Under the pieces are notes generated by a model that searched no databases, was not told where the DNA came from, and saw nothing but the letters and a program-made list of their open reading frames with translations. A stretch of 64,000 nt of DNA from a bacterium (GTDB lineage: Bacteria > Patescibacteriota > Minisyncoccia > UBA6257 > 02-FULL-45-10c): the NCBI GenBank assembly GCA_021786945.1, contig JAJYMK010000003.1, forward strand, positions 329,366 through 393,365. The letters run 5' to 3'. The stretch's first letter is position 1. Each line of letters starts with the position of its first letter. Both the position numbers and the translations under genes were made by a program. Below are positions 13,257 through 21,744 of this stretch, piece after piece.

Positions 13257-13628
13257 TTACTGAAGTTCAACTGTAGCACCGGCAGCTTCCAATTTCTTCT
13301 TCAAATCTTCAGCCTCCTCTTTCTTTAAGCCTTCTTTAACGGCTTTAGGAGCGGCATCTACAATATCCTTGGCTTCTTTCAAACCAAGACCAGTAGCTTC
13401 TCTCAAAACTTTGATAACCTGAATCTTTTGAGCACCGCCGTCTTTCAACATAACTTTCCAGGCGGTCTTCTCTTCGGCTTCGCCTCCGGCAGCAGCACCG
13501 GCTCCGGCAGCCATTACCGGCATAGCGGCAGAAATTCCGAACTTCTCCTCCATCGCCTTTACAAATTCGGCGAGTTCAACAACTTTCATTTCCGCAATCT
13601 TATCCAATAAATCTTTATACTTTTCCAT
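13257..13628 (-). CDS. rplL: 50S ribosomal protein L7/L12
   Basis: Ala/Glu-rich hinge and the conserved C-terminal domain [22 protein letters not shown]. Confidence 0.9.
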
Positions 13629-13653
13629 AATTATTTTTTATTTATTTTTAATT

Positions 13654-14166
13654 TTAATTGCTTGCTTTTTTTGACACTTCAGTTAAACCGAACATGACCT
13701 TTTTGATTGGCATAGTAAGCATCATAGCTATCTGAGCCAATAATACTTCTCTGGAAGGTAATGTAGCGACAAGATTGAATTCTTTGACGTCAACGAGTCT
13801 GCCCTCCTTCAAATCGTATGCTCCCACTACTTCAAATTCGCCTTTTTTGGATTTTTTGATATCCTTGGCAAATTTATTTATTATGGCAGCTACGGAAGTC
13901 AGATCGCCCTTGGCAAATATGGCGGCCATCTGCGACTTTGCAGTCATGGCATCGAAACTGATTCCGGAGTTCTTAAAAGAAATATTTATTAATCTCTTTT
14001 TAACAACTTTCAAATCAGCTCCGGCTTTTTTAAGATCTCTTTTGAGCTTCTTAAAATCCTCCACCAGAACGCCGTTGAAACCGACGAAAACCGCGGTTCC
14101 ACTTTCTTTCAATCTCTTTACGCTTTCGTCAACTAAAGAAGTTTTTTGCTTTTTAGTTAATGGCAT
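13654..14166 (-). CDS. rplJ: 50S ribosomal protein L10
   Basis: L10-like N-terminus; its position directly upstream of rplL on the same strand is the canonical rplJ-rplL order. Confidence 0.9.
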   Translation of the reverse strand: MPLTKKQKTSLVDESVKRLKESGTAVFVGFNGVLVEDFKKLKRDLKKAGADLKVVKKRLINISFKNSGISFDAMTAKSQMAAIFAKGDLTSVAAIINKFAKDIKKSKKGEFEVVGAYDLKEGRLVDVKEFNLVATLPSREVLLAQIAMMLTMPIKKVMFGLTEVSKKASN

Positions 14167-14333
14167 AATTTGTGAATCTTATAATGATTCTATTTTTTTA
14201 ATTAAAAAAGGACCTTTACAGTCCATAGTATATTTGCCCTCACAGCAAATTTTATTTTCCTCGACAGGACTTATGGGTGCCTGTTGTCTATGGATGTACA
14301 TATAATATATACAAAAATGTCCAAATCGTCAAG

Positions 14334-14368
14334 AAAGAAAAAGCCCCGGTTCATTATGAACCGGGGCG
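14334..14368 (-). terminator. terminator hairpin GCCCCGGTTCATTATGAACCGGGGC after AAA+ gene 1
   Basis: A GC hairpin followed by T-run on the minus strand, 7 nt after the stop. Confidence 0.6.
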
Positions 14369-14374
14369 TATTTT

Positions 14375-15706
14375 TTAATCCTTCTTTTCGTCTTTTCCGT
14401 CTTCCTCTTCCTTTTCAAAAACAATTTTGGATTTCTCATTGAGTACGACGTAAATTATGTCTTTCTCTTTGATGAATCCCTTGTTCTTGAGCCGGCAAAG
14501 GGGCTTGCGAAGATATTTGTAAACCTTATTCTTCACGAGCCGTGCGCCATTTTCAGGCTTATCGGTAGCTTCGTTGAGGATGAATTCCTTAACCCTCTCG
14601 TCAAAGACGAGGGTAACCGGAAAACTCTTCAGGACTTTTTCCTGGAATTTGCGCAGTTCCACGTCAACAATCTTGCGCAATATATCCGGACCAAGGGGTC
14701 TGTAAACGCTTATTCTGTCGAGCCGCGCCAGAAATTCCGGCGGGAAAGCTTTCTTAAGCTCTTCGAGGGACTGCTTGTATATTTCTTTATCCAAGACAGA
14801 CTCCTCTTTTTTCTCTATCTTCTGAACGAACCCAAGCTTACCTTTCGGATTCAGTATTTCGGCGATCTGGCGGGAACCGACGTTAGTCGTCATGAGAATA
14901 ACCGAATTGGAAAAATCGGTTATCATGCCGTTGGCCAACTGCAGCTGCGCCTTATCGATGATATTCAGAAGTATATTATGAAGAGCCGGATGGGCTTTTT
15001 CTATCTCATCAAAAAGAATGATGGATTTAGGCCGTTTAACTTCGGTAAATGCCTGCATAGCCGCAAGTCTGTTTACCTCAGACACAACCTTTTCGCGCTC
15101 AGCGAGTATCGGAAAAGCTTCTTTGAGTTTCTTGTTAAGAAGTGGCCATTTCTTTACGTCTACATTTCCCTTCTCGTCAAAAAACTCGGAAAACTCTACC
15201 ATCTGATCGGCTAAGTCATAATTCAACTGAATAAGCTCTTTGACTTTTTCGTTGAATTCTTCTTTCGCCTTGATCATTTTAGGATCCGTGTCTTTTGCGA
15301 ACTTATCGATGCTCCCCTGAAACAGAATGGGAGCAGTGCCCGAATCCCGCGGATCTTTCGGATTCCAGTGGCCAACATAGCCAGCCGGAGAACCGATGAG
15401 TTTGGAAATGCTATGGCTTTCCGAATACGCTTCACACGGAATTTTCGTGAAAGCATTCCTGTCACCAAACCAGTATTCAGCAAGTAATTCAGCCGTTAAG
15501 GTTTTACCGACACCGGAGGGTCCCGCGCACAAACCCACGTAAATAGGTTTGTTTTCCGTAAACATCTCCGACTCGAAAACCTCTATTGCATCGGCCAAAT
15601 CTTTCACTGCCTTATCCTGGCCTTTTATAACAGACAACATGAATTCTAAAAGCCGTAAAGCTTTTTCGCTTGGCTTTTCGCCATCCAACCTTATTCTGCG
15701 TTTCAT
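14375..15706 (-). CDS. standalone Clp/Hsp100 D2-type AAA+ ATPase with ~90-aa insert between Walker A and B
   Basis: ClpB-D2-like entry VIKGQDKAV…PIYVGLCAGPSGVGKT (Walker A). Walker B/sensor block IILFDEIEKAHPALHNILLNIIDKAQL. Sensor-2 EFLARLDRISVYRPLG. Strong SD (GGGGGTGA). GC is elevated (~45%). Confidence 0.7.
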   Translation of the reverse strand: MKRRIRLDGEKPSEKALRLLEFMLSVIKGQDKAVKDLADAIEVFESEMFTENKPIYVGLCAGPSGVGKTLTAELLAEYWFGDRNAFTKIPCEAYSESHSISKLIGSPAGYVGHWNPKDPRDSGTAPILFQGSIDKFAKDTDPKMIKAKEEFNEKVKELIQLNYDLADQMVEFSEFFDEKGNVDVKKWPLLNKKLKEAFPILAEREKVVSEVNRLAAMQAFTEVKRPKSIILFDEIEKAHPALHNILLNIIDKAQLQLANGMITDFSNSVILMTTNVGSRQIAEILNPKGKLGFVQKIEKKEESVLDKEIYKQSLEELKKAFPPEFLARLDRISVYRPLGPDILRKIVDVELRKFQEKVLKSFPVTLVFDERVKEFILNEATDKPENGARLVKNKVYKYLRKPLCRLKNKGFIKEKDIIYVVLNEKSKIVFEKEEEDGKDEKKD

Positions 15707-15789
15707 ACTATCACCCCCGTTATTTAATTTAAAAAGACTCTAATTTAATATTCACCCTTCTAGAAAAAACAGTCAACCCCATTTTTTAA

Positions 15790-15831
15790 AAAAAGAAAAA
15801 GCCCCCCTACTCTTTTCAGAGTAAGGGGGCA
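15790..15831 (-). terminator. terminator hairpin GCCCCCCTACTCTTTTCAGAGTAAGGGGGC after AAA+ gene 2
   Basis: A long GC hairpin plus T-run on the minus strand, directly after the stop codon. Confidence 0.6.
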
Positions 15832-15835
15832 GATT

Positions 15836-17104
15836 TTATTTGACATCGCCAGGCTTCTCCTCTTCACACTGCTTGGAAAAAACCACGTCTTTGCCATCGA
15901 GGTCGACACAGACTATATCCGCTTCTTTTATTTCTTTCCGGTTCCTGAGCCGCGCCATTTCCCGCCTTATGTACTTATCGAACTTGGCAAGAAGCGTCGA
16001 GGCTCCGAATTCCAGACGGTCCAAAGATTCGTTAACGATGAAATTCTTAACTTCATCGCTTATCCTGAGCGAAATAGGAAATGAAGCGTTAACCAGTTCC
16101 GTATAGAACTTATTAAGCTCCAGATCGAAAATCTCGTTCAGAGAATCTTTGAACAGCGGACGGAAAACAGATATCCTGTCAAACGAAGACAGGAAATCAA
16201 GACTTATATTTTCGACCGCAAACTGCATTGAAGATTTATAAATCTTCTTTGCGTCCGAAAGCCGATCATATATAGCCTTGTCCATTTTCTCGATCTGTTC
16301 TTTGCTAGGAGGTTCGAAACCCAGCCTTCCCTTTTTCAGTCCCCTCACCTCTTCCATTATCACATCCGAACTGATGGTGGACGTAACAATAACTATAGAA
16401 TTGGTAAGATCGACTTCTTCGCCGTTTTCGAATCGCACGTATCCGTCTCTCAGCACTCTCTGGATAATACTGAGCATGCCGGGACAAGAACGTTCGAAAT
16501 CACTGAAGACGACGATGGAAAGACTGTTCTGGGGTTTGTAACTGTTGAGCTTCTCCTCAAGAACATTGATTGCATCAACGAGATTAATGCAATGCTTCGT
16601 GGTATCGCCAAGCTTCTGCCGCAGCTCATCTGAGCCGACAGCCGAGTCATTGGCGGTATTACAAAGCCTGAAAAGTTCAGCCTGTTTTTTCTCCAGTATC
16701 TCCTGTAGCTTTTTCTGGCCATTGAATATCCGGCAGTAATCCTTGTTCCTCAGTAAAAGAGGAAGATCGATTTCCGCTCTGGACAACATAGCCGGAACAG
16801 CCGCTACGGTTTCCATATTGAAAGCTCCGCAAGGAATTTCGGAATAATACTTGCTGTTTCCGAAAAATATTTCCGCCAAGCTTTCGACGAAAAGCCGTTT
16901 TCCGACATTTGGCAACCCCAGAAATAATCCCTTATAAATAGGGCTATTTCTGCGCCTCAGTCCGGAAGTCAGGCCTTCAAAGCATTTCACGAAGTTTCCG
17001 ATAACCGGATCCTGACCCTTAATCCTTTCTTTTAACATCGCAAAGAGATTAGAGGCCTTGTCGCTTTTTTCTCCCCGGGAAAGACGTATCATTTTGCGTT
17101 TCAT
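15836..17104 (-). CDS. paralogous Clp-D2-like AAA+ protein with degenerate Walker A/B (predicted pseudo-ATPase)
   Basis: Same architecture as the neighbour (IKGQDPVI…GLFLGLPNVGKRL; SEIPCGAF; FLSSFDRISVFRPL). The residue after the P-loop Lys is R instead of S/T. Walker B reads VVFSDFERSCP rather than hhhhDE. Strong SD AAGGGAGGGG. Confidence 0.65.
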   Translation of the reverse strand: MKRKMIRLSRGEKSDKASNLFAMLKERIKGQDPVIGNFVKCFEGLTSGLRRRNSPIYKGLFLGLPNVGKRLFVESLAEIFFGNSKYYSEIPCGAFNMETVAAVPAMLSRAEIDLPLLLRNKDYCRIFNGQKKLQEILEKKQAELFRLCNTANDSAVGSDELRQKLGDTTKHCINLVDAINVLEEKLNSYKPQNSLSIVVFSDFERSCPGMLSIIQRVLRDGYVRFENGEEVDLTNSIVIVTSTISSDVIMEEVRGLKKGRLGFEPPSKEQIEKMDKAIYDRLSDAKKIYKSSMQFAVENISLDFLSSFDRISVFRPLFKDSLNEIFDLELNKFYTELVNASFPISLRISDEVKNFIVNESLDRLEFGASTLLAKFDKYIRREMARLRNRKEIKEADIVCVDLDGKDVVFSKQCEEEKPGDVK

Positions 17105-17224
17105 AACCCCTCCCTTTTTCCTCTATATTTTTGTAAAAGCTTCTATCCCTATTTAAACACTACAACAAAATAAAAACAACCCCCTGTCAACCGTTATTAA
17201 AAAATTTCATTATTCTTTTGCACT

Positions 17225-17953
17225 TTAATCTTTAATTAAAGGCACGAAGCTGAAACCAAAATATTCTTTTTTATCGAAAAAATCTTTAGCTTTTTTCTCC
17301 ACTACCACAATACTATTTTTAACCGGAGCAATAATTTTTCCACCAATTTTTAATTGCTCAAACCAAAAAGCCGGAATTTCATCACTAGCCGCTGCGGCAA
17401 TAATTTTATCGTATGGTTCAAATTCTTTACAACCCAATGATCCATCTCCAATAATTAATTTTACTATTCCCTGCTTCTCAAATCCATACTTAGACATATT
17501 TTCTCTAGCGAATTTCTGAAGCTCTTCAATCCTCTCCACTGAAATAACTGAATAAGAAATTGAGGTCAGGGTACCTTGGGCGATAATTTCTTTCTGAGTT
17601 TTGTCTTCACTCCCAACAAACTCAGCTCTTTGCTCTATCTCTTTTTTCATATGGGTTAAAATATACGCCATCAGAGCAGTTTTCCAACCAGAACCGGTAC
17701 CAATCTCTAAAACTCGCTCTCCGATTTTTAAATCCAAAAGCTCCAGCATAAAAGCCACGACAAGCGGCTGGGAAATCGTCTGTTCAAAACCGATAGATAG
17801 AGCTTCGTTGGAATAAGCATTGTTTTTTTTCTGTTCCGGCACAAAATCCTTTCTGTCTATATTTTTAAAAGCCTCTATGATTACCGGATTTTTTAAATAA
17901 CCATCCTTTTTTAAAAGCTCTATAAGTTCTTCGTTTGTGTTTAAGACTGCCAT
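17225..17953 (-). CDS. pcm: protein-L-isoaspartate O-methyltransferase
   Basis: TISQPLVVAFMLELL…RVLEIGTGSGWKTALMA is the PIMT SAM-binding signature. GC is native-like (low). Confidence 0.85.
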   Translation of the reverse strand: MAVLNTNEELIELLKKDGYLKNPVIIEAFKNIDRKDFVPEQKKNNAYSNEALSIGFEQTISQPLVVAFMLELLDLKIGERVLEIGTGSGWKTALMAYILTHMKKEIEQRAEFVGSEDKTQKEIIAQGTLTSISYSVISVERIEELQKFARENMSKYGFEKQGIVKLIIGDGSLGCKEFEPYDKIIAAAASDEIPAFWFEQLKIGGKIIAPVKNSIVVVEKKAKDFFDKKEYFGFSFVPLIKD

Positions 17954-17971
17954 AAATATATTATAACAAAA

Positions 17972-18006
17972 GAAAAAGCCCCGATCCTTACGAATCGGGG
18001 CTTATT
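17972..18006 (-). terminator. terminator hairpin GCCCCGATCCTTACGAATCGGGGC after the 721-aa gene
   Basis: A GC hairpin plus T-run on the minus strand; it may act in both directions. Confidence 0.6.
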
Positions 18007-18014
18007 TTCAGGCC

Positions 18015-20180
18015 CTAGAACTTGGCCTGGTCTTTCTTGGATTTCAGATACATGGGATAGTAGTCGCGATACTCGGACGCTATCCTCGTGATCTTCTTCC
18101 CTTCCTTGTCCGTGAACACCTCATTGATGAACATGCCCAGTGACGGCAGCATGGCGTGAGTTTCCAGGAATTCATCCGGGCCTTTAAGGCACGGAACGAG
18201 GATTCCCACGCGCTCATCGTAGAGCATGAACGAGGAGTGGAAGTGGCCGAGATAAGCTATTGCCGGTAAGCCGCCGCTCTCACCGCTTTCGCGGATAAGC
18301 TTCAGGTGTTTTTCAACCTGCGGCGACAGCGAATAGCCCAGCCCGCCCTCGGGGTGTATCAGTTTGTGGTAGATCCCATCCACCACAACCGACCCGAACA
18401 TCGAACCCAGATACCGCAGAAGACCCGACAGCCTGATCGACAGGGTCCTCACGATAAGATGGCCGATGGATTTCCAAGCCCAAGCATCGTGATTGCCTTC
18501 GATGATGTCGGTCTGGAGCCAAACTTCTTTCTGGCTCTTTTCCGTCCTGGTGACGTAGCTTATAGTGCCATCGTCGTTGTTGATCATTTCCGAGACCAGG
18601 ATAGGCTTCTTAGGGTCTACTTTGATCTTCACTTTAGGCCAGTTAGCCACCGCGTGGTTTTCCATGCCGTCGAGATCAGAGAACTTAACGTCGAAGTTAT
18701 GTCCCCTGTAACCCGCCGCAGCAGGGCCATCGGTAACGTCACCGGGATGATACATGCGCCGCACGCCGGCGTCAGCAGCATCCTGATAGGCCTTCTTGAA
18801 GATGTCGGGCAGTTCTTTCTTGCTGCCGCTGTGATTATCCGAAACAGAGGCTTCCTTGGTTGCGAAGACGTAAACGTCCTCGTACTTCAAAGGAAGCGGC
18901 GCAAACTTCCGCTTAACCGACACTTCGAGTTCGTAACGCTTGGTGTCAGGCTTGAACGGAATTTTGATGCCGCAGTTAGACAGCCTCTTGATAATCCCGG
19001 CGACTCCTTCCTTACCCATCTTCAGCCTGCGCGAAAGATCGCCGGCCGATATGATATGCTCCTTCACGAACCAGCCCAGGACCTGCTTCGAAACATCATC
19101 CAGGTTGGCAGCGCGGGACACATTTATGTCGTAGACATCGTTGGTAATGGTGTAGTGATCCAGAGCGTTAAGGTAAACCTTAAGGCCCACAGACGGATCA
19201 AACATCCAGTTATCCCCGAAGCTAAGCTCGGCGATCGTGTAACCCACACGGGGTTCCACGCCGCGGCGTCCCTGACGCATCATTCTCTTGTGAAGGCTCG
19301 GCACGGTCTCTATGAACATGCCGTTGTACTTGGGTAAGCGAGCTCGGCGGTGCAGACCGCCAAAGACCAGAAGCATCGGCTTCGGATCATCTTTCAAGGC
19401 GTTCGCGATTTTCTGCGGCCCATAGCTTACAGCTTTCGGGCTATTGTCGTCCCACGGGGACATCGCTTTGATGCGGACACCTTTTATGTCGAAAGACTTC
19501 TCCAGTTCGCCGGCTTTGCGGAGGTCTTCGCGCTTGTTGCAGATAGCCGACACTATGTCGATGCCGTCTTTTGCCCTCCAGGAAAGTTCTCCCTTACCGC
19601 TTACGATGTAGGTTTTGAACTTTTTGCTCCTGGGGAAACAGTCAACGACGTAGTCGGCCAGCTCCTGCGCGTCACCGAAGAGCGCATCCGATTCGGTCGT
19701 AGCGGTAGGCTTGCTCATTACTAAGCCGCCAACCACCACAACGAAGTCGATATCTTCTTTTACGAAGACGACCTCGTAAAGCCAGTGCAGAAGACTTATC
19801 TGCGCCTGCTTTGACCCCATACGGATCTCAGAGAGGAAAGCAACCTTAAACTTCTTGTTGCTTATCGATATAGGAATCGCCTCTTCACTTTCATCGCCCT
19901 CAACGGCAGTGCTGAGAAACAGCTTTCTGTCCTTGGTGACGTGAATGTTGTAGCCCTTGTCGTTGAGTTTCTCCGCGACGTCCAGCAGATCCTGGATGCT
20001 CGTATTTAAGGCTTTCGCCAGAGCATCTTCGGACTTGTCGGACTTCTTGGTCTTCAACAGAACCAGGAGCCTGAGCTCTTTCTCTTCTTGAGAGAGAGAG
20101 GGGTGCGCTTTTTCGTTGCTCATTTCGGACTTACCGGAGGGCAAGTCCGATTTTTTTTGCTTCTTGCCCTTCTTTTCCAT
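18015..20180 (-). CDS. large (721 aa) protein: degenerate N-terminal phosphoesterase-like region plus intact C-terminal calcineurin-like metallophosphoesterase domain
   Basis: C-terminal half carries SDNHSG (motif I-like), HPGDVTDG (GDxxDG), IEGNHDAWAW (GNHD) and YLGHFHSSF (GHxH). N-terminal half has VAFLSEIRMGS and FVVVVGGLV in the equivalent positions, which look degenerate. Start is set at MEKKGKKQ, which has the SD GGGGGTAG. GC is ~50%, against ~35% background. Confidence 0.55.
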   Translation of the reverse strand: MEKKGKKQKKSDLPSGKSEMSNEKAHPSLSQEEKELRLLVLLKTKKSDKSEDALAKALNTSIQDLLDVAEKLNDKGYNIHVTKDRKLFLSTAVEGDESEEAIPISISNKKFKVAFLSEIRMGSKQAQISLLHWLYEVVFVKEDIDFVVVVGGLVMSKPTATTESDALFGDAQELADYVVDCFPRSKKFKTYIVSGKGELSWRAKDGIDIVSAICNKREDLRKAGELEKSFDIKGVRIKAMSPWDDNSPKAVSYGPQKIANALKDDPKPMLLVFGGLHRRARLPKYNGMFIETVPSLHKRMMRQGRRGVEPRVGYTIAELSFGDNWMFDPSVGLKVYLNALDHYTITNDVYDINVSRAANLDDVSKQVLGWFVKEHIISAGDLSRRLKMGKEGVAGIIKRLSNCGIKIPFKPDTKRYELEVSVKRKFAPLPLKYEDVYVFATKEASVSDNHSGSKKELPDIFKKAYQDAADAGVRRMYHPGDVTDGPAAAGYRGHNFDVKFSDLDGMENHAVANWPKVKIKVDPKKPILVSEMINNDDGTISYVTRTEKSQKEVWLQTDIIEGNHDAWAWKSIGHLIVRTLSIRLSGLLRYLGSMFGSVVVDGIYHKLIHPEGGLGYSLSPQVEKHLKLIRESGESGGLPAIAYLGHFHSSFMLYDERVGILVPCLKGPDEFLETHAMLPSLGMFINEVFTDKEGKKITRIASEYRDYYPMYLKSKKDQAKF

Positions 20181-20487
20181 AATACTACCCCCTTTTAAAT
20201 CCAAGATTTTAGAACCTATACTGCTAATAGCTTCCAAACGCGATACGGGTAAATTTTATACAGAACAAGGAGCGAGGAGGAAATTTATAGTTTTAACTAT
20301 ATTTCCGACAAGCGATGCATGTTATATATACAAATTTACAGTATCCCGAAGGGTTGTGGTCTAAATAATGTGTTTAGGAATTATTAGCAGGATAGGTTCT
20401 TTTTTTAAAGAACTACTTATAATTTAAGTATAAGACCCAGCCGAAATATAATGCAATAGGGCAAAAGTTTTTTTGAATAAAAAATAA

Positions 20488-20536: not shown

Positions 20537-20607
20537 GGGGGTATCGGTTAATGGCAAACCAGCGGTCTCCAAAACCGCGACTGGGGGTTCAAGTCCCTCT
20601 GCCCCCG
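20537..20607 (+). tRNA. tRNA-Trp(CCA)
   Basis: GGGGGTATCGGTTAATGGCAAACCAGCGGTCTCCAAAACCGCGACTGGGGGTTCAAGTCCCTCTGCCCCCG folds as a cloverleaf. Anticodon loop is CTCCAAA. Confidence 0.8.
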
Positions 20608-20625
20608 CTCTTAATAAAATAAAAA

Positions 20626-21153
20626 ATGGATAAAAAAATATTTATTCCAATAATCCTTGGAACAGCGCGAGAAGGACGCGAATCGGAAAAAGCTGCTAAA
20701 TTTGTTTTTGAAGAAACAAAAAAATACGGATTCGAAACTGAAATTATAGATGTTAAAGACTACGCTTCACCAGTAACCTGGTCAATGGATCCAGCGATCA
20801 AAGAAAAAATTTCGGCAAAAATAAAAAATGCCAGCGCGTTGATAATTGTCGCACCGGAATATAACCATGGCTATCCCGGTGAACTCAAATTATTTCTCGA
20901 CAACTTCTACGAAGAATATTTTTACAAACCCTTGGGTATTTGCGGGGTTTCATCCGGGCCTTTAGGAGGTGCAAGAATGGTAGAGCAACTAAGAATGATT
21001 TCCATAGAATTCCATATGACGCCGATAAGGGAAGCTGTTTATTTTTCCTCGATAAAGAATCTTTTTGACGAAAAAAACAATATCAAAGACCCCGCGTATT
21101 CAGAAAGAGTAAAAACGATGCTCAAACAGCTAGAATCCTCAATGAGAAACTAA
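20626..21153 (+). CDS. NADPH-dependent FMN reductase family flavoprotein
   Basis: Flavodoxin-like fold with LIIVAPEYNHGYPGELKLFLD, the FMN-reductase signature. Confidence 0.8.
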   Translation: MDKKIFIPIILGTAREGRESEKAAKFVFEETKKYGFETEIIDVKDYASPVTWSMDPAIKEKISAKIKNASALIIVAPEYNHGYPGELKLFLDNFYEEYFYKPLGICGVSSGPLGGARMVEQLRMISIEFHMTPIREAVYFSSIKNLFDEKNNIKDPAYSERVKTMLKQLESSMRN

Positions 21154-21180
21154 AAAATCCCCCGTTTGGGGGATTTTTAA
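21152..21180. terminator. bidirectional terminator ATCCCCCGTTTGGGGGAT
   Basis: A perfect hairpin flanked by A-run and T-run, between convergent genes. Confidence 0.6.
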
Positions 21181-21181
21181 A

Positions 21182-21352
21182 TTATTTCTTTGCTTCTTTA
21201 TGCGGCTGATGCTTTCTGCATTTATTGCAATACTTATTTAATTCAATTTTTCTATCAACAGTTTTTTTATTTTTTCTCGTATAATAACCAATCTCCTTAC
21301 AAACGGAGCACCTAAGTTTTATTAAACGCTCTCCAAATTTACCTTGTGACAT
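21182..21352 (-). CDS. rpmG: 50S ribosomal protein L33 (56 aa; absent from ORF track)
   Basis: Manual translation gives MSQGKFGERLIKLRCSVCKEIGYYTRKNKKTVDRKIELNKYCNKCRKHQPHKEAKK. It has the L33 zinc-ribbon CxxC…CxxC and the KLxLKKYCP-like block. Confidence 0.8.
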   Translation of the reverse strand: MSQGKFGERLIKLRCSVCKEIGYYTRKNKKTVDRKIELNKYCNKCRKHQPHKEAKK

Positions 21353-21427
21353 AATAACTAATTTAAAATTTAATGATTTAAGATTTAATGATTATAGAAT
21401 AAAAACTCTGACTTTGCAATATCTCTG

Positions 21428-21499
21428 AGCCGATGGTGAGAATTGAACTCACGACCTACTCCTTACCATGGAGTTGCTCTACCTCTGAGCTACATCGGC
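21428..21499 (-). tRNA. tRNA-Thr(GGT)
   Basis: The reverse complement GCCGATGTAGCTCAGAGGTAGAGCAACTCCATGGTAAGGAGTAGGTCGTGAGTTCAATTCTCACCATCGGCT folds as a cloverleaf. Anticodon loop is ATGGTAA. Confidence 0.8.
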
Positions 21500-21543
21500 A
21501 TAAATAATATTTTAATAATACAGCCGTAATTTTCAATCGGCTG

Positions 21544-21615
21544 AGCCACTTCCCAGATTTGAACTGGGGACCTTCTCTTTACAAAAGAGTTGCTCTACCG
21601 CTGAGCTAAAGTGGC
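21544..21615 (-). tRNA. tRNA-Thr(TGT)
   Basis: The reverse complement GCCACTTTAGCTCAGCGGTAGAGCAACTCTTTTGTAAAGAGAAGGTCCCCAGTTCAAATCTGGGAAGTGGCT folds as a cloverleaf. Anticodon loop is TTTGTAA and the variable loop is short (type I). Confidence 0.7.
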
Positions 21616-21660
21616 TTATATTTTAAACTACTTTTATACAATACACCTTAATACGGTGTG

Positions 21661-21744
21661 TGGGCAGGGAGGGATTCGAACCCCCGTAGCCACAAGGGCG
21701 CCTGATCTACAGTCAGGTGCAATTGACCGCTCTGCCACCTGCCC
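21661..21744 (-). tRNA. tRNA-Tyr(GTA)
   Basis: 84 nt with a long variable arm. The reverse complement reads GGGCAGGTGGCAGAGCGGTCAATTGCACCTGACTGTAGATCAGG…. Anticodon loop is CTGTAGA. Confidence 0.8.

What the first reader, a model, noticed from the sequence alone, without database searches (positions are those of the whole stretch)
14334..20240. Foreign-composition block between rplJ and tRNA-Trp: paired AAA+ ATPases plus a large metallophosphoesterase protein; candidate undescribed module
The conserved rplK-rplA-rplJ-rplL neighbourhood is interrupted immediately upstream of rplJ by three co-oriented minus-strand genes whose GC (~45% and ~50%) clearly exceeds the ~35% background.

Each gene carries a strong GGAGG-type SD and its own GC-hairpin terminator.

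The content is an active-looking Clp-D2-like AAA+ protein, a degenerate paralog of it, and a 721-aa protein with a calcineurin-like phosphoesterase/nuclease domain. This combination resembles the ATPase-plus-effector logic of many anti-phage systems, but I cannot match it to a described family.

Native low-GC pcm sits between the AAA pair and the large gene, so the block may be two separate insertions or a mosaic.
Basis: partly seen in the sequence, partly recalled or inferred. Interest (0 to 1): 0.85.

Follow-up and report, generated by a model that had tools for sequence, protein, structure and literature searches.

The report
DP1-like nuclease plus Clp-like ATPases
An uncultivated ultra-small bacterium carries, where four core ribosomal and transcription genes normally sit, a rare two-module DNA-cutting-type enzyme related to phage proteins, a protein-repair gene and a pair of Clp-type protein-unfolding ATPases; the cluster is inherited rather than freshly inserted, but the nuclease gene is exchanged and recoded unusually fast and its role is unknown.

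Summary
The described features are real. Three minus-strand genes have raised GC. Third-codon-position GC (GC3) is 0.69 for the large gene and 0.51/0.52 for the ATPases, against a window median of 0.34. Each has its own ribosome-binding site and terminator.

The block is not a recent insertion. The same order (large gene, pcm, AAA, rplJ-rplL-mraZ) recurs in related Patescibacteria genomes, and pcm belongs to it.

The 721-aa protein is two tandem modules, each a winged helix plus a calcineurin-like phosphodiesterase. The first module has lost its metal ligands and the second keeps all five motifs. Its closest solved fold is DP1, the proofreading exonuclease subunit of archaeal DNA polymerase D. 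One-module relatives are phage genes.

AAA1 is a single-ring ClpC-D2-type unfoldase. It has a GYVG pore loop, an inserted coiled-coil hairpin and an LGF loop at the ClpP-docking position. AAA2 is a catalytically dead paralogue.

The large gene stays next to such an ATPase in three different neighbourhoods but occurs alone in four others, so functional coupling is plausible, not proven.

The nuclease gene diverges far faster than its flanks: three equidistant allele clades at about 53% identity, against 80-90% for flanking genes.

A defence role is possible but unsupported by direct evidence. I rate this an undescribed variant of known protein kinds, of moderate interest.

The parts
18015..20180 (-). 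Large gene ('BIG', 721 aa): two tandem modules, each a winged helix plus a DP1-type phosphodiesterase
   Evidence: - ORF, identical to P0001.
- AlphaFold model: pLDDT 71.6, pTM 0.73.
- GC3 is 0.69.
19911..20090 (-). First winged-helix domain (about aa 31-90)
   Evidence: - Three helices and a wing in the model.
- Weak HTH_11 and BirA-repressor matches.
- MarR-family matches with the family profile.
19161..19862 (-). N-terminal phosphodiesterase-like module, catalytically dead (about aa 107-340)
   Evidence: Alignment with active one-module relatives shows the motif changes:
- SDTHxGS becomes SEIRMGS.
- GDxxDG becomes GGLVMS.
- GNHD becomes GKGE.
- HPxGG becomes SPWDDN.
- GHxH becomes GGLH.

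The same losses are seen in the copies in L005, L001 and L012.
18930..19118 (-). Second winged-helix domain (about aa 355-417)
   Evidence: - The family profile matches the AdcR/MarR winged helix at E 0.0046.
- Helices 362-402 in the model.
18063..18875 (-). C-terminal phosphodiesterase module with all five metal-binding motifs (about aa 436-706)
   Evidence: - Motifs SDNHSG, GDVTDG, GNHD, HPEGG and GHFH are present.
- H450, G480, D481, N563, H564, H609, G645 and H648 are invariant in 14-18 homologues.
17976..18003 (-). Terminator hairpin after the large gene
   Evidence: 12-pair stem followed by a T run.
17225..17953 (-). pcm, protein-L-isoaspartate O-methyltransferase
   Evidence: - Pfam PCMT 6.8e-56.
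- NCBIfam equivalogs above cutoff: 195 against 188, and 172.2 against 159.05.
- Native GC3 of 0.32.
- Conserved at this position in relatives.
15836..17104 (-). AAA2, catalytically dead paralogue of AAA1
   Evidence: - 32% identical to AAA1.
- AAA_2 1.5e-07 and ClpB_D2-small 6.9e-06.
- Walker A reads GLPNVGKR, Walker B reads FSDFE, and there is no pore loop.
- It keeps the RLGF loop.
15801..15830 (-). Terminator hairpin after AAA2
   Evidence: 13-pair stem followed by a T run.
14375..15706 (-). AAA1, single-ring ClpC/ClpB-D2-type AAA+ unfoldase
   Evidence: - AAA_2 7.6e-34 and ClpB_D2-small.
- ClpB/ClpV/ClpA D2 matches at 1e-50 to 1e-56, far below the equivalog cutoffs.
- Model pLDDT 86.2, with a coiled-coil hairpin (helices 142-173 and 184-221) inserted after the GYVG pore loop.
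- KLGF at 290-293 aligns with the LGF of chain 8xon_S, an entry described as a ClpC1:ClpP1P2 degradation complex.
- G292 is invariant in 29 homologues.
14343..14367 (-). Terminator hairpin after AAA1
   Evidence: 11-pair stem followed by a T run.
13257..14166 (-). rplJ-rplL, conserved downstream flank (context)
   Evidence: ORFs. They lie downstream of the cluster.
20537..21352 (.). Upstream flank (context): tRNA-Trp (+), an FMN-reductase-like gene (+) and rpmG (-)
   Evidence: rpmG and the FMN reductase lie upstream of the large gene in L005, L006 and L003.

Best explanation
**What the locus is.** It is a vertically inherited, lineage-specific cluster in a Patescibacteria (CPR) genome. It sits between rpmG/tRNA-Trp and rplJ, where secE-nusG-rplK-rplA usually lie. 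It consists of separately transcribed genes.

**1. The 721-aa protein.**
- It is a fused pseudo-dimer of a winged-helix plus DP1-type phosphodiesterase unit. That unit exists as a one-module protein in many phage genomes.
- The first module has lost its metal ligands and probably serves only for binding. The second is intact.
- Inferred: it binds DNA through its winged helices and acts as a single-active-site 3'-5' exo- or endonuclease, by analogy with DP1 and Mre11.

**2. pcm.** It is an ordinary isoaspartyl protein-repair methyltransferase.

**3. AAA1 and AAA2.**
- AAA1 is a single-ring ClpC-D2-type unfoldase. It threads polypeptides with a GYVG pore loop, has a coiled-coil hairpin insertion, and carries an LGF loop at the position used by ClpC1 to dock on ClpP.
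- Inferred: it feeds a ClpP-like peptidase.
- AAA2 is a dead paralogue. Inferred: it co-assembles with AAA1.

**Inferred coupling.** The unfoldase and the nuclease work together. Most likely the unfoldase controls the nuclease by activating, removing or degrading it, or it strips proteins from the DNA that the nuclease processes.

**Composition.** The nuclease gene's deviant composition reflects repeated in-place replacement by divergent alleles, not a one-off island insertion.
For: **Synteny**
- Searches show the same gene order in relatives.

**Architecture of the large protein**
- Dead and active modules.
- The one-module family profile finds PolD DP1 as the best PDB sequence at 4.8e-09, ahead of generic phosphoesterases. 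The shared motifs are GDxVDGxGxYxGQ and QAQT.
- NCBIfam PolD-small-subunit matches reach 1e-18 in one-module relatives.
- One-module relatives lie in phage genomes, next to terminase, portal, capsid and methyltransferase genes.

**AAA1**
- HMM, fold and loop evidence.
- AAA2 motif loss.

**Adjacency of the large gene and an AAA in three different neighbourhoods**
- The window's clade.
- L013: the large gene followed by a 520-aa AAA, with no pcm.
- L017: a 736-aa remote homologue (hhalign probability 98.3) followed by an AAA and a degenerate AAA.

**Allele replacement**
- Flanking genes are 80-90% identical among four close genomes.
- The large gene falls into clades that are 51-54% identical. 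That is the same distance as to much more distant genomes.

**GC3**
-.
Against: - Each gene has its own promoter-like site and strong terminator, so this is not an operon.
- The large gene occurs without an adjacent AAA in L008/L015, L012, L014 and L027.
- An AAA1 homologue occurs without the large gene in L018.
- No ClpP was found in the window or in any fetched locus. Only a small part of each genome was visible.
- Nuclease activity and DNA binding are inferred from fold and motifs only. Phosphoesterases of this superfamily also act on nucleotides, lipids and phosphoproteins.
- The persistent GC3 excess across relatives is not fully explained by replacement alone.
Confidence: 0.45

Rival explanations
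1. These are unlinked neighbours. AAA1/AAA2 and pcm are general proteostasis genes: a CPR substitute for ClpC/ClpX plus protein repair. The large phosphodiesterase is an unrelated, phage-derived gene that happens to occupy the adjacent slot. There is no functional module.
For: - Each gene has a separate promoter and terminator.
- The large gene occurs alone next to rplJ, next to parAB or next to a membrane protein in four lineages.
- The AAA occurs next to a Trypsin_2 protease without the large gene.
- The evolutionary tempos differ: AAA1 looks vertical at 63-74% identity, while the large gene falls into incongruent clades.
Against: - The pair stays adjacent in three otherwise different neighbourhoods at deep divergence.
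- In L016 a very divergent phosphoesterase-like 845-aa protein still occupies the slot before pcm and AAA.
Confidence: 0.3
2. This is an anti-phage or anti-mobile-element defence system. The AAA+ pair senses or gates, and the DNA-binding phosphodiesterase is the nuclease effector. The fast turnover reflects an arms race.
For: - The nuclease slot is hypervariable between conserved flanks.
- Its composition is deviant.
- It has phage homologues.
- AAA1 matches the PADLOC models PDC-M37B (5e-26) and DolB (3e-13).
- Homing-endonuclease ORFs lie nearby in relatives.
Against: - The PADLOC matches reflect general Clp-D2 homology. ClpB/ClpV/ClpA models score far better, at 1e-50 to 1e-56.
- The large protein matches no PADLOC model.
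- The locus sits among ribosomal and cell-division genes, with no other defence genes seen.
- Its position is fixed across relatives.
- The conserved LGF loop points to proteolysis.
- There are no experimental data.
Confidence: 0.15
3. This is a DP1-like accessory or proofreading subunit of a DNA polymerase. The large protein would work with a replicative or repair polymerase as DP1 does with DP2, or as B-subunits do with family-B polymerases.
For: - DP1 and the B-subunits are the top fold matches.
- There is DP1-specific sequence similarity in the wider family.
- A dead phosphodiesterase module parallels the inactivated eukaryotic B-subunits (PMC7544198).
- A PHP-domain protein lies next to the cluster in L001 and L002.
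Against: - The model has no OB-fold domain.
- No polymerase gene is adjacent in any locus.
- Phage one-module relatives lie in head-morphogenesis or methyltransferase neighbourhoods, not replication modules.
- NCBIfam DP1 scores are far below the cutoff: 67 against 445.
Confidence: 0.05
4. This is a recent horizontally acquired island, inserted as one or two pieces between rplJ and tRNA-Trp.
For: - GC and GC3 are raised and confined to three genes.
- A tRNA gene lies at one border.
Against: - The same genes are in the same order in relatives whose flanking genes are only 47-90% identical.
- pcm is part of the conserved order.
- There are no att-like direct repeats and no integrase.
- IMG/VR holds no copy.
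Confidence: 0.05

Closest known systems
Archaeal PolD small subunit DP1 (3'-5' proofreading exonuclease) and the eukaryotic polymerase B-subunits
   Same: - The wider family shares the DP1-type extended motif II (GDxVDGxGxYxGQ) and the QAQT motif after motif V.
- There is an inactivated phosphodiesterase copy, as in eukaryotic B-subunits.
   Different: - It has no OB-fold domain and no DP1 N-terminal domain.
- Winged helices precede each phosphodiesterase module.
- Two modules are fused in one chain.
- No DP2 or family-B polymerase partner was seen.
- It occurs in bacteria and phages rather than archaea and eukaryotes.
- NCBIfam scores are far below the cutoff.
One-module phage proteins with a winged helix and a phosphoesterase (match phrog_7339, 'DNA repair exonuclease'; uncharacterised)
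   Same: - They are homologous to each half of the large protein. The exhaustive profile search gave 1782 hits at E<=1e-3, many of them 300-430 aa.
- They have the same order of winged helix then phosphodiesterase.
   Different: - The phage proteins have one module with intact motifs, and some carry inteins.
- The CPR protein is a dead-plus-active tandem encoded in a fixed chromosomal position.
ClpC1/ClpC D2 ring (ClpP-partnered Hsp100) and ClpX
   Same: - AAA_2 plus the D2-small domain, a GYVG pore loop and the Walker, sensor and arginine motifs.
- The LGF tripeptide aligns with the LGF of chain 8xon_S, from an entry described as a ClpC1:ClpP1P2 degradation complex.
- It is a single-ring unfoldase, like ClpX.
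   Different: - It has only one AAA module and no N-domain or D1.
- A roughly 100-aa coiled-coil hairpin is inserted right after pore loop 1. From my own knowledge, this is the position of the HslU I-domain.
- It is paired with a dead paralogue.
- It is not a ClpX orthologue (26.9 bits against a cutoff of 359).
Mre11-Rad50 / SbcCD
   Different: - The ATPase here is a Clp-type AAA+, not an ABC/SMC protein.
- There is no capping domain.
- No Mre11 or SbcD model matches.
Dodola (DolA/DolB) and PADLOC candidate PDC-M37
   Same: They include a ClpB-D2-like AAA+ component. AAA1 matches DolB at 3e-13 and PDC-M37B at 5e-26.
   Different: - The matches are partial and much weaker than those to Clp chaperones.
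- No DolA or PDC-M37A-like partner is present.
- The large protein matches no PADLOC model.

Membership tests
Calcineurin-like metallophosphoesterase superfamily | Five metal-binding motifs: DxH, GDxxD, GNH(D/E), H and GxH | tested here: met
   - The C-terminal module has SDNHSG, GDVTDG, GNHD, HPEGG and GHFH. The key residues are invariant in homologues.
- The N-terminal module has lost most of them.
- Pfam Metallophos does not reach E 0.1 on this protein itself, but it matches relatives.
Calcineurin-like metallophosphoesterase superfamily | Beta-sandwich phosphoesterase fold | tested here: met
   [not shown]
PolD DP1 / polymerase B-subunit family | DP1-type phosphodiesterase sequence signature | tested here: inconclusive
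   - One-module relatives hit DP1 first in the PDB (4.8e-09) and hit NCBIfam NF003118 at up to 1e-18, but at 67 bits against a cutoff of 445.
- The window protein's own profile gave no DP1 sequence hit at E<=1, only the fold match.
PolD DP1 / polymerase B-subunit family | OB-fold domain preceding the phosphodiesterase domain | tested here: not met
   The model shows a winged helix plus a short linker before each phosphodiesterase module, with no OB barrel.
PolD DP1 / polymerase B-subunit family | Partner catalytic subunit (DP2, or a family-B polymerase with a C-terminal zinc-finger domain) | not tested
   None is seen within about 10 kb in any locus. Whole genomes were not available.
Mre11/SbcD nucleases | Family model match and an adjacent Rad50/SbcC ATPase | tested here: not met
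   No Mre11 or SbcD NCBIfam or Pfam hit. The neighbours are pcm and Clp-like AAA+ genes.
Clp/Hsp100 AAA+ (D2-type module) | AAA_2 domain plus ClpB_D2-small domain with intact Walker A/B, sensor-1, arginine finger, sensor-2 and GYVG pore loop | tested here: met
   AAA1 meets this. AAA2 fails all the catalytic motifs.
Clp/Hsp100 class I (ClpA/B/C) | Two tandem AAA modules plus an N-domain | tested here: not met
   AAA1 is 443 aa with a single module. NCBIfam equivalog scores are 171-191 against cutoffs of 885-1232.
ClpP-partnered unfoldases (ClpA/C/X) | (I/L/V)G(F/L) docking loop after sensor-1 | tested here: met
   - KLGF at 290-293 aligns with LGF of chain 8xon_S, an entry described as a ClpC1:ClpP1P2 degradation complex.
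- ClpB has a gap at this position.
- G292 is invariant in 29 homologues.
- The loop has low confidence in the model, which would fit a flexible loop.
ClpP-partnered unfoldases (ClpA/C/X) | A ClpP peptidase encoded in the genome and physical docking to it | not testable with these tools
   There is no ClpP in the 64-kb window or the fetched loci.
ClpX / HslU orthologues | Equivalog model above cutoff | tested here: not met
   ClpX scores 26.9 bits against 359. No HslU hit.
Dodola / PDC-M37 defence systems | Both components present (DolA+DolB, or M37A+M37B) | tested here: not met
   Only partial B-component matches for AAA1 were found. pcm, AAA2 and the large protein give no A-component match.
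Protein-L-isoaspartate O-methyltransferase (PCMT) | Equivalog model above curated cutoff | tested here: met
   NF001453 scores 195 against 188. TIGR00080 scores 172.2 against 159.05. The PADLOC mad2 hit reflects the shared methyltransferase fold; NCBIfam MADS2 scores 15 bits against 720.
Recently acquired genomic island | Atypical composition | tested here: met
   [not shown]
Recently acquired genomic island | Absent from the same site in relatives; flanking repeats, integrase or mobile-element genes | tested here: not met
   Present at the same site in all relatives recovered. No att-like repeats. Not found on viral contigs.

The most novel reading that the evidence does not exclude
The tandem dead-plus-active DP1-type nuclease and the active-plus-dead ClpC-like unfoldase pair form a previously undescribed two-part system specific to Patescibacteria. 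In it, a proteolysis-linked AAA+ machine gates a phage-derived DNA nuclease, for example as an immune or abortive-infection device. The nuclease cassette would be exchanged between lineages at a fixed chromosomal hot spot. A related reading is that the large phage and CPR clade of DP1-like phosphodiesterases represents the mobile-element reservoir from which the archaeal DP1 and eukaryotic B-subunit lineage is derived, or to which it is sister.
Probability: 0.2. Interest if true: 0.75.

Novelty: new variant of a known kind. Interest (0 to 1): 0.5.

Why it matters
- **Unknown biology of Patescibacteria.** These bacteria have tiny genomes with many genes of unknown role. This locus is a conserved but fast-turning-over gene set wedged into one of the most conserved gene arrays in bacteria.
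- **Reach of the DP1/B-subunit fold.** The phosphodiesterase type otherwise tied to archaeal and eukaryotic replicative polymerases has a large, uncharacterised radiation in phages and CPR bacteria. That radiation includes a fused dead-plus-active form that parallels the inactivation seen in eukaryotic B-subunits.
- **A minimal Clp-type unfoldase.** The locus suggests a one-ring ClpC-D2-like unfoldase with a ClpP-docking loop and a new coiled-coil insertion. It could be the main regulated-proteolysis ATPase of these organisms.
- **If the two are coupled.** It would be a new way of putting a nuclease under the control of an unfoldase.
- **If they are not coupled.** The locus is still a clear example of in-place allele replacement that leaves a strong, gene-sized composition scar.

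Tried and rejected
- **Pfam, NCBIfam and PADLOC on the large protein** gave only weak helix-turn-helix hits. The family profile against PDB sequences also found only winged-helix proteins.
- **BLASTP of the N-terminal half against the C-terminal half** was not significant. The duplication became visible only through alignment with one-module relatives.
- **Broad alignments A2 and A4** were too divergent for the search for related loci.
- **The genome-contig scan** returned only 5 loci and the metagenome scan 9, so co-occurrence statistics are thin.
- **The viral-contig scan and tblastn against cultured phages** found no two-module copy. One one-module hit turned up, in Halorubrum virus BLv36, with every gene annotated as hypothetical.
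- **The afdb50 fold library** was unavailable.
- **ClpP** was sought by tblastn in the window and all loci and not found. This is uninformative, because only small genome fractions were visible.
- **Literature searches** for bacterial or phage DP1 homologues, PDC-M37, and Clp proteases in CPR gave nothing specific. PMC7544198 analyses only archaeal and eukaryotic DP1/B-subunits.
- **Island borders** were sought as direct or inverted repeats. Only shared terminator and promoter-like motifs were found.
- **Mosaic structure inside the large gene** was tested by sliding-window GC3 and codon identity against L005. Both were uniform, with no breakpoint.
- **The 845-aa protein of L016** could not be shown to be homologous. 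hhalign probabilities were 1-3%, leaving only motif-level resemblance.

Full report
**Observation**

The region holds four minus-strand genes between rplJ-rplL and tRNA-Trp:
- AAA1, 14375-15706
- AAA2, 15836-17104
- pcm, 17225-17953
- a large gene, 18015-20180

The window averages 37.7% GC. AAA1, AAA2 and the large gene have 44.1, 44.6 and 52.8% GC, while pcm has 35.5%.

Each of the three genes has a G-rich ribosome-binding site, a promoter-like site and a strong hairpin terminator.

One caveat concerns the gene order. rplK, rplA and nusG are not in the window at all. rpmG (21182-21352), a tRNA cluster and tRNA-Trp lie on the far side. The block therefore occupies the place where secE-nusG-rplK-rplA normally lie. 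It does not split an array that is visible here.

**Not a fresh insertion**

The large protein has only 16 relatives in the word-indexed search of 5.8 billion proteins. The contigs that encode them show the same order: S16-KH-trmD-rpsB-tsf ... large gene, pcm, AAA, then (AAA2 or a PHP protein), rplJ-rplL-mraZ-rsmH-PBP-mur (also L016 and L021-L025). Names attached to related proteins and loci place these organisms in Patescibacteria/Minisyncoccota.

pcm is a conserved member of the arrangement and a true PCMT. No att-like repeats or integrase flank the block, and no copy lies on IMG/VR viral contigs. The idea of a foreign block, or of two insertions around a native pcm, is therefore not supported.

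**The large protein**

Library scans gave only weak helix-turn-helix hits. The alignment of homologues, the structure model (pLDDT 71.6, pTM 0.73) and an alignment with one-module relatives show two tandem modules. Each is a winged helix followed by a calcineurin-like phosphodiesterase domain.
- The C-terminal module keeps all five metal-binding motifs: SDNHSG, GDVTDG, GNHD, HPEGG and GHFH.
- The N-terminal module has lost them: SEIRMGS, GGLVMS, GKGE, SPWDDN and GGLH. It still has its own invariant residues, which suggests a binding role.

An exhaustive profile search found 1782 relatives at E<=1e-3. They include 650-850-aa two-module proteins and many 300-430-aa one-module proteins, some interrupted by inteins.

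The one-module profile hits DP1 as its best PDB sequence (4.8e-09), through an extended motif II and a QAQT motif. It also hits NCBIfam PolD-small-subunit models, well below cutoff.

The one-module proteins are phage genes:
- They sit on contigs of about 35-48 kb.
- Their neighbours include terminase, portal, ribonucleotide reductase with an intein, and DNA methyltransferase genes.
- In Halorubrum virus BLv36 the gene lies between the portal/minor-head genes and the major capsid gene.

A paper on DP1/B-subunit phylogeny considers only archaeal and eukaryotic members (PMC7544198).

The protein fails several DP1 membership criteria. It has no OB fold, no partner polymerase was seen, and model scores are below cutoff. 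I file it as a DP1-type phosphodiesterase of a distinct, uncharacterised clade, not as a DP1 orthologue. By analogy, its most likely activity is metal-dependent nuclease action on DNA guided by the winged helices. This is inferred, not shown.

**The ATPases**

AAA1 is a one-module Clp/Hsp100 D2-type AAA+. All catalytic motifs and the GYVG pore loop are conserved in 29 homologues. Two features stand out.
- The model (pLDDT 86.2) shows a two-helix coiled-coil hairpin (142-173 and 184-221) inserted directly after the pore loop.
- The tripeptide LGF (291-293) aligns with the LGF of chain 8xon_S, from an entry described as a ClpC1:ClpP1P2 degradation complex. ClpB has a gap at this position. The glycine is invariant across the family, including in the dead paralogues.

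From established knowledge of Clp ATPases, (I/L/V)G(F/L) loops dock the unfoldase on ClpP. I therefore infer a ClpP-feeding unfoldase. No ClpP could be located in the limited sequence available.

AAA2 is 32% identical to AAA1 and has lost Walker A/B, sensor-1, both arginines and the pore loop. A similarly degenerate second AAA follows the active one in the distant locus L017. This suggests mixed rings.

AAA1 is not a ClpX or HslU orthologue. The PADLOC hits to PDC-M37B and DolB are partial and much weaker than the hits to Clp chaperones. No partner components of those systems are present.

**Is it a module?**

Evidence for coupling is that the large gene and an AAA of this family are adjacent in three different neighbourhoods:
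- the window's clade;
- L013, which has no pcm and different flanks;
- L017, with a 736-aa remote homologue (hhalign probability 98.3) followed by two AAAs, downstream of cohesin/dockerin-like genes.

In L016 an 845-aa protein with only motif-level phosphoesterase resemblance occupies the slot before pcm, AAA and rplJ.

Evidence against coupling:
- The large gene stands alone next to rplJ (L008/L015, L014), between rpsI and parAB (L012), or before a membrane protein (L027).
- An AAA homologue sits next to a Trypsin_2 protease without the large gene (L018).
- The window genes are separate transcription units.

I put functional coupling at roughly even odds.

**Evolutionary behaviour**

Among four close genomes (window, L005, L006, L003), the flanking proteins are 75-99% identical in every pair. 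The large protein is 77% identical between the window and L005, and 83% between L006 and L003. Across those two pairs it is only 51-54% identical. That equals its identity to copies in far more distant genomes (L001 and L002), whose flanks are 47-81% identical.

AAA1 looks vertical but fast-evolving, at 63-74% identity.

The large gene is GC3-richer than its host genome in several relatives:
- L003: 0.59 against about 0.38
- L005: 0.455 against about 0.35
- L006: 0.436 against about 0.32

It is not GC3-richer in L008, or in the GC-richer L001/L002 genomes.

Against L005, synonymous third-position differences run 182 AT-to-GC against 58 GC-to-AT in the window copy.

The simplest reading is repeated in-place replacement of the nuclease allele from donors of other composition, possibly helped by biased gene conversion at a recombination hot spot. 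Free-standing homing-endonuclease ORFs sit just upstream in several relatives. This is inference, and the persistence of the GC3 excess is not fully explained.

**Verdict**

The finding is real and is more than ordinary housekeeping. The 'foreign island' reading is wrong, and the 'anti-phage system' reading is unproven.

The best-supported description is a lineage-conserved cluster that combines three things:
- a phage-related, DP1-type tandem dead/active nuclease-like protein;
- a protein-repair methyltransferase;
- a minimal ClpC-like unfoldase with a dead paralogue.

The link between nuclease and unfoldase is plausible but unshown. Both proteins belong to known superfamilies. The architecture, the pairing and the evolutionary behaviour appear undescribed in the libraries and papers I could search. 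I rate it a new variant of known kinds, with interest about 0.5.

Noticed in passing
window 20537-21744: rpmG (L33, 21182-21352, minus strand), tRNA-Thr/Thr/Tyr (21427-21744) and tRNA-Trp (20537-20608, plus strand) look like remnants of the usual tRNA/rpmG-secE-nusG-rplK-rplA-rplJ-rplL array. secE, nusG, rplK and rplA were not found anywhere in the 64-kb window or in related loci.
   Followed up: partly
[not shown]
   Followed up: partly
window 18306-19337 (+): A 343-aa ORF runs antisense inside the large gene. It is most likely a by-product of the gene's GC richness, not a gene.
   Followed up: no
L001 4474-5301 and 6968-7207; L003 9426-9662; L007 2392-2601: Free-standing LAGLIDADG and GIY-YIG homing-endonuclease ORFs lie just upstream of the large gene in several relatives. 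They could promote local gene conversion or allele exchange.
   Followed up: no
L009 9086-11137; proteins P0016 and P0237; BFVD entry A0A8S5P6X8: Some phage one-module phosphodiesterase relatives are interrupted by inteins. Neighbouring phage genes (ribonucleotide reductase, an epimerase) also carry inteins.
   Followed up: no
L016 4560-7097: An 845-aa protein occupies the large-gene slot before pcm, AAA and rplJ. Those flanks are 61-68% identical to the window's. The protein itself shows only motif-level phosphoesterase resemblance (GDTHHG, DGDIVQG, GNH) and cannot be aligned by BLAST or hhalign.
   Followed up: partly
L018 8001-10119; L014 12325-13395; L001 14980-16047 and L002 10915-11973: Variable neighbours were seen. 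An AAA1 homologue is followed by a Trypsin_2 protease (L018). An HExxH 'Aminopep'-like protein lies between the large gene and rplJ (L014). A PHP-domain protein lies between the AAA and rplJ (L001, L002).
   Followed up: partly
window 17225-17953 (pcm, residues ~103-135): The PCMT carries an insertion of about 33 residues that splits the family match into two stretches.
   Followed up: no
window 14323-14347, 15781-15805, 17958-17982: The terminators after AAA1, AAA2 and the large gene share nearly the same 3' half (GGGGCTTTTTCTTTT on the coding strand). A 17-nt promoter-like motif is shared upstream of rplJ (14299-14315) and upstream of the large gene (20318-20334).
   Followed up: no
L012 2278-9546: In one genome labelled Saccharibacteria, the large gene lies between rpsD-rpoA-rplQ-rplM-rpsI and parA-parB, with dnaG further downstream. 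This is a quite different, chromosome-maintenance neighbourhood.
   Followed up: no
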